DNA from: a virus
Taxonomy: Duplodnaviria > Heunggongvirae > Uroviricota > Caudoviricetes
Virus record (IMG/VR): IMGVR_UViG_2778261268_000002
Length of the DNA stretch: 64,000 nucleotides
Strand: one strand, 5' to 3'
Under the pieces are notes generated by a model, which was not told the DNA's origin, made no database searches, and worked only from the letters and a program-made list of their open reading frames with translations. Positions 55,545-56,222 of this stretch are shown here, in pieces. Position 1 is the stretch's first letter; the number at the start of each line of letters is the position of its first letter. Made by a program: the position numbers and the translations under genes.

Positions 55545-56222
55545 ATGAATAACATGACAACGAAAGAGCTTTTGACGGCACTTCCAAAATACAAAAGCCA
55601 TAAAACAGTTCGCGCCTCAAAAATCAAAGATATCGAAATTATCGCCCTAATGGATGTGGTCCTTTTTTGCAACATCGAAGTCGTTGAGCCAGAAGGGGTA
55701 AAAGTCCATGTTGATAAAATGTTTTTGCAAAAACACCGACCAGAAATTGGCGGATATCTGGTCGCTTATGAGGACGGATCTCTGTCCTATTCACCAGAAA
55801 AAACATTTGAAGAAGGCTTTAGTCGGACTAACGACTTCTTCGAAAATGGGGTATCGCTCAGTATTGAAGGTCACAATGGGGTGACATTCATTACAGCCAG
55901 GGACGTAACTATTGCTGCCAGTGGCATCATTACCACACAAGAAGAAATCGACCTTGAAGCAGCCGACTTTTCTGACGCGCTGATGTGGCTGAAGGATGGC
56001 AAGAAAGTTGCTCGACGCGGGTGGAACGGCGAAAACCAATTCTGCTGGCTGGTTCCTGAAGGACAGTACCCGGCACGAATGGAAGCCATTAAGGGATATT
56101 TCCCCGGCGACCTCGTTCCGTATGGTGCTTATTTCGCCTTAAAAAATGCACAAGGTGTAGTTGTTCCGTGGGTGCCTTCTGTATGCGACTTACTGGCATG
56201 TGACTGGTTTGTAGTGGAGTGA
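55545..56222 (+). CDS. protein with C-terminal DUF2829 (Tad2-like) domain
   Basis: C-terminal ALMWLKDGKKVARRGWNGENQFCWLVPEG matches the DUF2829 signature as recalled. Confidence 0.5.
   Translation: MNNMTTKELLTALPKYKSHKTVRASKIKDIEIIALMDVVLFCNIEVVEPEGVKVHVDKMFLQKHRPEIGGYLVAYEDGSLSYSPEKTFEEGFSRTNDFFENGVSLSIEGHNGVTFITARDVTIAASGIITTQEEIDLEAADFSDALMWLKDGKKVARRGWNGENQFCWLVPEGQYPARMEAIKGYFPGDLVPYGAYFALKNAQGVVVPWVPSVCDLLACDWFVVE

What the first reader, a model, noticed from the sequence alone, without database searches (positions are those of the whole stretch)
55545..56222. DUF2829 (Tad2-like) domain protein next to ssb: candidate immune-signal sponge
The C-terminal segment ALMWLKDGKKVARRGWNGENQFCWLVPEG matches, as I recall it, the hallmark of DUF2829, the family containing the Thoeris anti-defence protein Tad2, which sequesters cyclic ADP-ribose signals. 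An N-terminal extension of ~110 aa is fused to it. Its location beside the dar anti-restriction operon fits a counter-defence role.
Basis: partly seen in the sequence, partly recalled or inferred. Interest (0 to 1): 0.55.

Follow-up and report, generated by a model that had tools for sequence, protein, structure and literature searches.

The report
Tad2 immune-signal sponge with OB-fold head
A P1-like phage-plasmid carries an optional early gene whose back half is a clear member of the Tad2 family, proteins that soak up bacterial alarm molecules. Its front half is an uncharacterised small domain that keeps turning up fused to other phage counter-defence proteins.

Summary
ORF 55545-56222 (+, 225 aa) has a C-terminal Tad2/DUF2829 domain (Pfam PF11195, E=3.6e-23). 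It is 45% identical to MoTad2, whose structure is solved with His-ADPR. [quoted passage not shown] The gene sits downstream of ssb, behind P1's C1-controlled early promoter. It is exactly absent from P1 itself but present in 229 PLSDB plasmids. RefSeq already labels it DUF2829, and a 2025 preprint reports Tad2 in 56% of P1-like phage-plasmids, so the sponge call itself is not new.

It is an OB-fold related to the phage L decoration protein Dec, followed by a 40-aa linker. This OB domain belongs to a large family with no Pfam model (5,285 clusters). It mostly occurs as stand-alone ~90-aa phage proteins among early genes. It is repeatedly fused to Tad2, Sequestin, Acb4, Acb2/Tad1, Lockin and a gp5.9-type RecBCD inhibitor.

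Best reading: an early cytoplasmic Thoeris-signal sponge carrying a second, possibly counter-defence, module. Nothing has been tested experimentally.

The parts
54794..54859 (+). ssb promoter region with the C1 repressor operator Ossb/Op21 (operator at 54823-54839)
   Evidence: These 66 bases are identical to P1 (NC_005856), where P2ssb, P1ssb and the monovalent C1 operator are annotated. The operator reads ATTGCTCTAATTAATTT in both.
54859..55347 (+). ssb, single-stranded-DNA-binding protein; the upstream gene of the presumed operon
   Evidence: PF00436 E=6.9e-40. 99% identical to P1 ssb.
55348..55544 (+). 197-nt spacer between ssb and the gene; contains the alternative GTG start (55377) and the Shine-Dalgarno GAGGA at 55534-55538
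   Evidence: No + strand terminator-like site and no P1 late-promoter -22 box were found here. The spacer is 99.3% identical to the P1 sequence that precedes isaA.
55545..56222 (+). Whole gene: OB-fold + linker + Tad2 fusion protein, 225 aa
   Evidence: A 100% identical copy in E. coli plasmid pMB2910_2 is annotated 'DUF2829 domain-containing protein'.
55578..55832 (+). N-terminal OB-fold domain (aa 12-96), Dec-like. Member of a large family without a Pfam model (PHROG 11049/872)
55833..55952 (+). 40-aa beta-rich linker (aa 97-136) that aligns weakly with the start of the Dec spike; low-confidence in the monomer model
   Evidence: pLDDT is below 50 for aa 97-137. The HMM alignment extends to Dec residue 122. 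Two interchangeable linker types occur among homologs.
55953..56219 (+). C-terminal Tad2 (DUF2829) domain (aa 137-225)
   Evidence: PF11195 E=3.6e-23. Sequence matches to 9eib/8v3e at E~7e-20. Foldseek to ModTad2-HisADPR at E=8e-9. 67% identical to the tested Tad2_68.
56229..57017 (+). isaA homolog (262 aa, function unknown), 6 nt downstream; it travels with the Tad2 gene
   Evidence: 95% identical to P1 isaA. The same Tad2-then-isaA pair with the same 6-nt spacing occurs next to dut in D6-like elements. PHROG 2326, unknown function.
57047..57364 (-). hxr homolog (105 aa, with a poly-Asp tract), last gene of the dar operon
   Evidence: Annotated hxr in P1 and SJ46. No Pfam or NCBIfam match.
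57354..60341 (-). ddrB, a component of the P1 Dar anti-restriction system
   Evidence: PF18763 ddrB-ParB E=5.5e-39. Annotated ddrB in P1.

Best explanation
The gene encodes a cytoplasmic counter-defence protein of a P1-like phage-plasmid. It is probably co-transcribed with ssb from the C1-repressed early promoter, so it would be made as soon as the element infects or is induced. Its C-terminal Tad2 domain is expected to assemble into the Tad2 homotetramer. The tetramer would trap TIR-made ADP-ribose-derived alarm molecules (His-ADPR of type II Thoeris and/or 3'cADPR of type I Thoeris) in pockets between subunits, so the Thoeris effector is never switched on. The N-terminal OB-fold domain is a separate module of unknown function. 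It is most likely a second counter-defence activity rather than a capsid-decoration domain. Shown: domain identities, conserved contact residues, gene context, and optional, mosaic distribution. Inferred: co-transcription, oligomerisation, the ligand, and any role for the OB domain.
For: Tad2 membership:
- PF11195 matches at E=3.6e-23.
- Sequence matches MoTad2 (9eib, solved with His-ADPR) and 8v3e at E~7e-20, and also HgmTad2, SPO1 Tad2 and SptTad2.
- The AF2 model is confident over aa 138-225, and its best Foldseek hits are all Tad2 structures.

Ligand site:
- SPO1 Tad2 contacts W25, N26, W73 and D79, and the water-coordinating S76, map to W160, N161, W209, D215 and S212.

Closest tested relative:
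- Tad2_68 is 67% identical over 82 residues.
- In Table S2 of Hadary et al. it scores y/y/y against type II Thoeris. For type I the entry 'n, N/A, y' means it was re-cloned and positive in plaque assay. It was negative for type IV Thoeris, two CBASS systems and Bacillus Pycsar.
- The beta2-beta3 insertion has the short MoTad2/Tad2_68 length, not the long HgmTad2 type needed for cyclic-dinucleotide binding.

Expression:
- The promoter and C1 operator are identical to P1's.
- There is no terminator-like site or late-promoter box between ssb and the gene.

Accessory, arms-race behaviour:
- The gene is exactly absent from P1, where a 684-bp gap joins the same ATG to isaA.
- It is present in 229 PLSDB plasmids, against about 500 that carry the P1-type ssb region.
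- Alleles differ in the specificity-determining insertion, and some carry EWKG in place of GWNG.
- The Tad2 module is nearly identical between a P1-type and a D6-type allele (pS 0.016), while the OB and linker parts are highly diverged (pS ~0.4, pN/pS 0.56-0.72).

OB domain:
- It is fused elsewhere to Sequestin, Acb4, Acb2/Tad1, Lockin and a gp5.9-like RecBCD inhibitor.
- Stand-alone copies lie among small early-type ORFs.
Against: No experiment exists for this protein or for any OB-fused Tad2. The one systematic Tad2 screen explicitly removed proteins that also matched PDB 6E3C, which is Dec. In that screen 19 of 84 sponge homologs inhibited none of the seven systems. Secondary contact positions differ from SPO1 Tad2: T78 becomes C214 (Gly in most alleles), D67 becomes Q203 and H71 becomes V207. 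The residues lining the His-ADPR pocket of MoTad2 could not be obtained, so ligand choice rests on clade membership. Tetramer formation behind a 136-aa N-terminal extension that includes a Dec-spike-like (trimer-type) segment is untested, because only monomer models could be made. Co-transcription with ssb across a 197-nt spacer is inferred, not shown. I did not check how often hosts of these elements carry Thoeris.
Confidence: 0.7

Rival explanations
1. It is a capsid decoration or virion-associated protein. The Dec-like OB domain and spike-like linker would bind the P1-type capsid and display, or carry along, the Tad2 domain.
Against: Dec lacks the family-invariant polar residues H19, K20, K26, K63, H64, Y75, D77, S81 and S83, all of which the window protein keeps. 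The gene follows ssb behind an early C1-controlled promoter, with no late-promoter box. Stand-alone family members are ~90 aa with no spike and lie among early-type small ORFs, not capsid genes. The fusion partners are cytoplasmic counter-defence proteins. P1 virions have no decoration protein, and P1 lacks this gene.
Confidence: 0.08
2. It is a sponge, but for a different signal: Pycsar cUMP/cCMP, CBASS cyclic dinucleotides, c-di-GMP or N7-cADPR rather than type I/II Thoeris signals.
For: Tad2 homologs vary widely in specificity. MoTad2 (45% identical) also binds cUMP/cCMP in a second pocket formed by the insertion. HgmTad2 binds cGG/cGAMP. Tad2_71 blocks type IV Thoeris. Alleles in P1-like elements differ mainly in that insertion.
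Against: The closest tested homolog, Tad2_68, was negative for type IV Thoeris, two CBASS systems and Bacillus Pycsar. The insertion is the short type, whereas cyclic-dinucleotide binding was linked to 35-41-residue insertions.
Confidence: 0.15
3. The main function lies in the N-terminal OB fold as a nucleic-acid-binding replication or recombination accessory working with the neighbouring SSB. The Tad2 domain would be incidental.
Confidence: 0.04
4. It is an anti-CRISPR of the AcrIIA7 type.
For: DefenseFinder labels this family 'Tad2 AcrIIA7'. AcrIIA7/HgmTad2 matches at E~1e-10, 36% identity.
Against: Li et al. could not reproduce Cas9 inhibition by HgmTad2 or its homologs. From general knowledge, E. 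coli and Salmonella do not carry type II-A CRISPR-Cas.
Confidence: 0.02

Closest known systems
MoTad2 / ModTad2 (Myroides odoratus prophage Tad2; PDB 9EIB with His-ADPR, 8V3E apo) and its clade, including Tad2_68
   Same: Same Pfam family and fold. 45% identity to MoTad2 and 67% to Tad2_68. The beta2-beta3 insertion has the same short length. The GWNG and W..PS.xD motifs are conserved.
   Different: Those proteins are stand-alone at 87-88 aa. This one carries a 136-aa N-terminal OB-fold plus linker. The position equivalent to SPO1 T78 is Cys, where MoTad2 has Ser and Tad2_68 has Gly. It is untested experimentally.
SPO1 Tad2 (Gp34.65; PDB 8SME/8SMF/8SMG), the founding 3'cADPR sponge
   Same: Same fold and the four direct ligand-contact residues; 36% identity.
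   Different: The water-mediated contact residues D67 and H71 are replaced. The host range and insertion sequence differ. SPO1 Tad2 does not inhibit type II Thoeris.
HgmTad2 (AcrIIA7; PDB 8KBI-8KBM)
   Same: Same family. It also tolerates an N-terminal extension of about 45 aa.
   Different: HgmTad2 has a 41-residue insertion that forms the cyclic-dinucleotide pocket. The window protein has the short insertion.
Phage L decoration protein Dec (PDB 6E3C)
   Same: The N-terminal domain shares the OB fold and core motifs (PxYK, V.A..I, PE.GGYL, FE..Y), followed by a beta-rich segment.
   Different: Dec lacks nine family-invariant polar residues. Dec ends in a 57-residue trimeric spike rather than a Tad2 domain. 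Dec binds the capsid exterior. The genomic setting here is early, not structural.
Two-headed sponge fusions (Acb4-Tad2 of Pasteurella phage Pm86; Tad2-Sequestin)
   Same: Tad2 is fused to a second small phage domain. In the published cases the partner proved to be a sponge and the fusion blocked two systems. Some homologs here carry OB + Tad2 + Sequestin (P0064, P0073).
   Different: The partner here is an OB fold with no demonstrated activity.

Membership tests
Tad2 / DUF2829 (Pfam PF11195) | Profile match above the curated Pfam threshold | tested here: met
   82.3 bits against a 25-bit cut-off, E=3.6e-23, covering profile positions 2-73 of 73.
Tad2 / DUF2829 (Pfam PF11195) | Tad2 fold: N-terminal helix, antiparallel sheet, and an insertion between beta2 and beta3 | tested here: met
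   AF2 block-mean pLDDT is 76-94 over aa 141-225, with helix 142-150 followed by strands. Foldseek against 9eib gives E=8e-9, and target TM-scores reach 0.90 against 8v3e.
Tad2 / DUF2829 (Pfam PF11195) | Ligand-contact residues of SPO1 Tad2: W25, N26, W73, D79 (direct) and S76, T78 (secondary) | tested here: met
   W160, N161, W209, D215 and S212 are conserved. T78 is replaced by C214.
Tad2 / DUF2829 (Pfam PF11195) | Homotetramer with ligand pockets at protomer interfaces | not testable with these tools
   Only monomer prediction was available.
Tad2 / DUF2829 (Pfam PF11195) | Sequesters a TIR-derived signal and inhibits Thoeris | not testable with these tools
Tad2 / DUF2829 (Pfam PF11195) | Typical architecture: short stand-alone protein of about 90 aa | tested here: not met
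   The protein is 225 aa with a 136-aa N-terminal extension. This is typical of the family but not defining: HgmTad2 and the Acb4-Tad2 fusions are also longer.
Phage L Dec-type capsid decoration protein | N-terminal OB fold of the Dec type | tested here: met
Phage L Dec-type capsid decoration protein | C-terminal three-stranded beta-helix spike that trimerises | tested here: inconclusive
   A 40-aa beta-rich segment aligns with Dec residues ~100-122, but it is low-confidence in the model and is followed by Tad2 rather than a full spike.
Phage L Dec-type capsid decoration protein | Late or structural gene context, and presence on the capsid | tested here: not met
   The gene follows ssb behind the C1-controlled early promoter, with no late-promoter box in the spacer. 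Capsid binding itself is not testable here.
Unnamed stand-alone OB family (PHROG 11049/872; no Pfam model) | Conserved motif set: PxYKCHK.V.A.KI ... KH.PE.GGY.V.Y.DGY.S.SP..FE.GY | tested here: met
   All invariant columns are present in the window protein. PHROG 11049 matches at E=6.9e-27. The family profile retrieves 5,285 clusters.
Lockin sponge family | Sequence similarity to LockinA or LockinB | tested here: not met
   The LockinA and LockinB sequences in the supplement share no motifs with the OB domain. One listed Lockin homolog instead carries the OB domain as a separate N-terminal module.

The most novel reading that the evidence does not exclude
The N-terminal OB-fold domain is itself a new family of phage counter-defence proteins: either a further nucleotide-signal sponge or a direct inhibitor. 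The P1-like protein would then be a two-headed anti-immunity factor, and the decoration protein Dec would be a diverged, capsid-binding offshoot of that family. The argument is the same 'guilt by fusion' logic that uncovered Sequestin. The domain is about 90 aa, is abundant as a stand-alone gene among early phage genes, and keeps five invariant basic residues plus Tyr and Ser residues that Dec has lost. It is found fused to Tad2, Sequestin, Acb4, Acb2/Tad1, Lockin and a gp5.9-type RecBCD inhibitor.
Probability: 0.4. Interest if true: 0.7.

Novelty: new variant of a known kind. Interest (0 to 1): 0.48.

Why it matters
P1-like phage-plasmids are common in clinical E. coli, Shigella and Salmonella and move resistance and virulence genes. 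About half of them carry this gene, so a working Thoeris-signal sponge would help explain how they establish in hosts armed with TIR-based immunity. The fused form was deliberately left out of the only systematic Tad2 screen, so its activity and specificity remain open. The larger prize is the OB domain. It is a family of thousands of clusters with no Pfam model, and it keeps company with nearly every known sponge family. It is therefore a concrete, cheaply testable candidate for a new anti-immunity protein family. Such sponges have also served as tools for discovering new immune signalling molecules.

Tried and rejected
- Late expression: I took the -22 box of P1's LPlyz late promoter (AAGTGATTT) and searched 54701-57100 allowing up to 2 mismatches. 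Nothing lies in the ssb-to-gene spacer.
- Terminator or promoter between ssb and the gene: none on the + strand.
- Structured RNA in the 197-nt spacer: an Rfam scan of the whole window found only three tRNAs elsewhere.
- OB domain equals Lockin: rejected by comparison with the LockinA/B sequences.
- OB domain equals TadIV-1: rejected, because TadIV-1 is a helical dimer.
- Pfam and NCBIfam on the N-terminal 140 aa, on IsaA and on Hxr: no families.
- His-ADPR pocket residues of MoTad2: the library holds only the apo-structure preprint, so they could not be checked.
- Literature on an OB-fold sponge, on DUF2829 in P1, or on Dec-Tad2 fusions: none found. The primary paper on Tad3-Tad8 is not in the library, so identity of the OB family with one of those cannot be excluded.
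- AcrIIA7-type anti-CRISPR: rejected on the published negative data.
- Oligomer modelling (trimer versus tetramer): not possible with the monomer-only predictor.

Full report
**What the window is.**
The region is a P1-like phage-plasmid (Punavirus). Bases 54800-57400 are 97.6% identical to Salmonella phage SJ46, and 96-97% identical in pieces to P1. The local gene order is as follows:
- lyz (minus strand)
- ssb (54859-55347)
- the ORF in question (55545-56222)
- an isaA homolog (56229-57017)
- hxr (minus strand)
- ddrB (57354-60341, minus strand, PF18763)

**Checking the observation.**
The ORF starts at ATG 55545, 6 nt after a GAGGA Shine-Dalgarno sequence, and encodes 225 aa. Pfam PF11195 'Tad2-like' matches aa 141-224 at E=3.6e-23, 82 bits against a 25-bit threshold, over essentially the whole profile.

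A sequence search of the PDB returns only Tad2 proteins at significant E-values:
- MoTad2 (9eib, solved with His-ADPR) and 8v3e, at about 7e-20
- HgmTad2/AcrIIA7
- SPO1 Tad2
- SptTad2

An AlphaFold2 model built on 41 homologs is confident for aa 4-96 and 138-225 and poor for aa 97-137. Its top 24 Foldseek hits in the PDB are all Tad2 structures, best 9eib at E=8e-9. The N-terminal extension is about 136 aa rather than about 110.

**How close it is to tested sponges.**
In SPO1 Tad2 the ligand is held by W25, N26, W73 and D79, with T78 and S76 in secondary roles. By the HMMER alignment these map to W160, N161, W209, D215, C214 and S212. The direct contacts are therefore intact.

Table S2 of Hadary et al. 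2025 lists the sequences and phenotypes of the Tad2 homologs tested there. Tad2_68 (87 aa) is 67% identical to the window domain. MoTad2 is 45% identical, HgmTad2 36% and SPO1 36%.

For Tad2_68 the table shows:
- y/y/y for type II Thoeris
- 'n, N/A, y' for type I Thoeris, which by the Methods means it failed the plate transformation, was re-cloned individually and was positive in plaque assay
- negatives for type IV Thoeris, two CBASS systems and Bacillus Pycsar

MoTad2 sequesters His-ADPR and, in a second pocket, cUMP/cCMP. The beta2-beta3 insertion of the window protein has the short MoTad2/Tad2_68 length. Cyclic-dinucleotide binding in HgmTad2 and SptTad2 depends on a 35-41-residue insertion. 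The best-supported ligands are therefore His-ADPR and/or 3'cADPR.

**Context and expression.**
The 66 bases upstream of ssb are identical to P1, including the two sigma-70 promoters and the C1 operator Ossb/Op21. Between ssb and the ORF there is no + strand terminator-like site and no match to the P1 late-promoter -22 box. I infer early, C1-repressed co-transcription with ssb. That timing suits a protein that must act before immune signals build up.

**Distribution and evolution.**
In P1 itself the gene is exactly missing. Window bases 55549-56232 have no counterpart, and the same ATG runs straight into isaA. The gene occurs in 229 PLSDB plasmids, almost all non-mobilizable E. coli, Salmonella or Shigella plasmids. 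One (pMB2910_2) has a 100% identical copy annotated 'DUF2829 domain-containing protein'. About 500 plasmids carry the P1-type ssb region.

A 2025 preprint using DefenseFinder reports 'Tad2 AcrIIA7' in 56% of P1-like and 93% of D6-like phage-plasmids. Finding a Tad2 gene here is therefore not new.

In D6-like elements the same gene followed by isaA lies next to dut and cre instead of ssb. The Tad2-isaA pair thus behaves as a movable two-gene unit.

The protein is a mosaic. Between the window allele and a D6-type allele the Tad2 part is nearly identical (pS 0.016). The OB and linker parts are heavily diverged (pS about 0.4, pN/pS 0.56-0.72). The breakpoint falls at the conserved EEIDLEAADFSD junction.

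The same Tad2 module is found behind other N-termini (dUTPase, a tail-fibre repeat and others) and sometimes ahead of a C-terminal Sequestin domain. Alleles differ in the insertion that sets second-pocket specificity, and some carry EWKG in place of GWNG.

**The N-terminal domain.**

Searching with this domain shows it is mainly a stand-alone protein of 80-100 aa with strikingly conserved motifs. A profile search of 1.84 billion cluster representatives finds 5,285 clusters at E<=1e-3 and 3,760 at E<=1e-10. There is no Pfam model, the matching PHROGs are 'unknown function' and BFVD neighbours are 'uncharacterized'.

Dec shares the structural core of the family. It lacks the invariant H19, K20, K26, K63, H64, Y75, D77, S81 and S83, all of which the window protein keeps. 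Three stand-alone genes on long contigs sit in runs of small ORFs with NinB, a PD-(D/E)XK nuclease or a terminase-like pair nearby. None sits among capsid genes.

The fusion partners are the most telling evidence:
- Tad2
- Sequestin (PF21825)
- Acb4 (PF13876)
- the Acb2/Tad1 hairpin (PF24729)
- a T7 gp5.9-type RecBCD inhibitor (PF25708)
- Lockin, seen in one entry of the published Lockin homolog list

Of the 15 Pfam hits among the top 150 representatives, 9 are to sponge families.

Tal et al. discovered Sequestin precisely because it was the commonest Pfam partner of Tad2 and Acb4. Hadary et al. removed sponge homologs carrying PF21825 or a 6E3C-like domain from their test set. The fusion has thus been noticed, but as far as the searchable literature shows it has not been characterised.

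**Mechanism, and what is shown versus inferred.**
Shown:
- a Tad2 domain with intact direct-contact residues, in the clade of His-ADPR/3'cADPR sponges
- an early-promoter context
- optional, recombining distribution
- a Dec-related OB domain from a large family linked to counter-defence proteins

Inferred:
- tetramerisation
- the actual ligand
- co-transcription with ssb
- any activity of the OB domain

I put 0.7 on the protein being a functional signal sponge against Thoeris-type TIR signalling.

The main rival for function is a different ligand (0.15). A capsid-decoration role is unlikely (0.08) because of the early context, the loss of family-specific residues in Dec and the nature of the fusion partners. 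P1 is also reported to have no decoration protein.

**Limits.**
No multimer modelling was possible. The His-ADPR pocket residues of MoTad2 were not available. The primary report of Tad3-Tad8 is not in the library, so I cannot exclude that the OB family has already been named there.

**Verdict.**
This is a genuine, already-annotated Tad2-family gene in an unusual fused form, which makes it a new variant of a known kind. The sponge call alone is of modest interest. The OB-fold partner is the lead worth following.

Noticed in passing
window 52544-53752 (minus strand): A 402-aa TnpB RNA-guided endonuclease of the IS200/IS605 type (NF040570, E=1.9e-116) sits beside the lysis genes. The otherwise near-identical plasmid pMB2910_2 and P1 have no such gene at this position, so it looks like a recent insertion.
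   Followed up: partly
window 56229-57017 (+); also L008 3041-3817 and L009 2185-2961: The isaA homolog (262 aa, no Pfam or NCBIfam family, PHROG 2326 unknown) follows the Tad2 gene with a 6-nt gap in the P1-like (after ssb) setting and in the D6-like element L009 (after dut). D6 itself (L008) has the same Tad2-then-isaA order. The two genes move as a pair, which hints at a linked function.
   Followed up: partly
window 55377-55544; P1 NC_005856 21569-22531: The GTG-start annotations of P1 IsaA (320 aa) and SJ46 gp048 (281 aa) add a 56-aa basic N-terminal extension. This is probably not translated. The ATG at 55545 has a good ribosome-binding site, and divergent homologs start there.
   Followed up: partly
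window 57047-57364 (minus strand): The hxr homolog (105 aa), annotated as a possible Xre-like repressor, has no family match. It carries an acidic stretch GGDEDDDDDDDD containing a run of eight aspartates (poly-Asp tract) about 12 residues before its C-terminus, and its start overlaps the end of ddrB by 11 nt. It is therefore the last gene of the dar operon, and a DNA-mimic-like role is conceivable.
   Followed up: no
homologs P0031, P0043, P0050 and others (alignment): A subset of P1-like Tad2 alleles has EWKG instead of the ligand-contacting GWNG motif, plus a much shorter beta2-beta3 insertion. This suggests a changed or lost ligand specificity within the same plasmid family.
   Followed up: no
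P0056 (241 aa); D6 locus L008 2085-3034: A dUTPase-Tad2 fusion protein occurs in E. coli P1/D6-like contigs. In D6, dut and the DUF2829 gene are adjacent separate genes, so the fusion probably arose by recombination at the conserved GGITTQQEE linker.
   Followed up: partly
window 6051-6123, 6129-6201, 8190-8262 (+): Three tRNA genes were found by the Rfam scan of the window. Their anticodons and any P1 counterparts were not checked.
   Followed up: no
BFVD hit A0A384WK77 (Vibrio phage vB_VpaS_KF6, 394 aa): The OB domain also appears in a protein annotated as a putative MazG pyrophosphatase, another nucleotide-handling partner.
   Followed up: no
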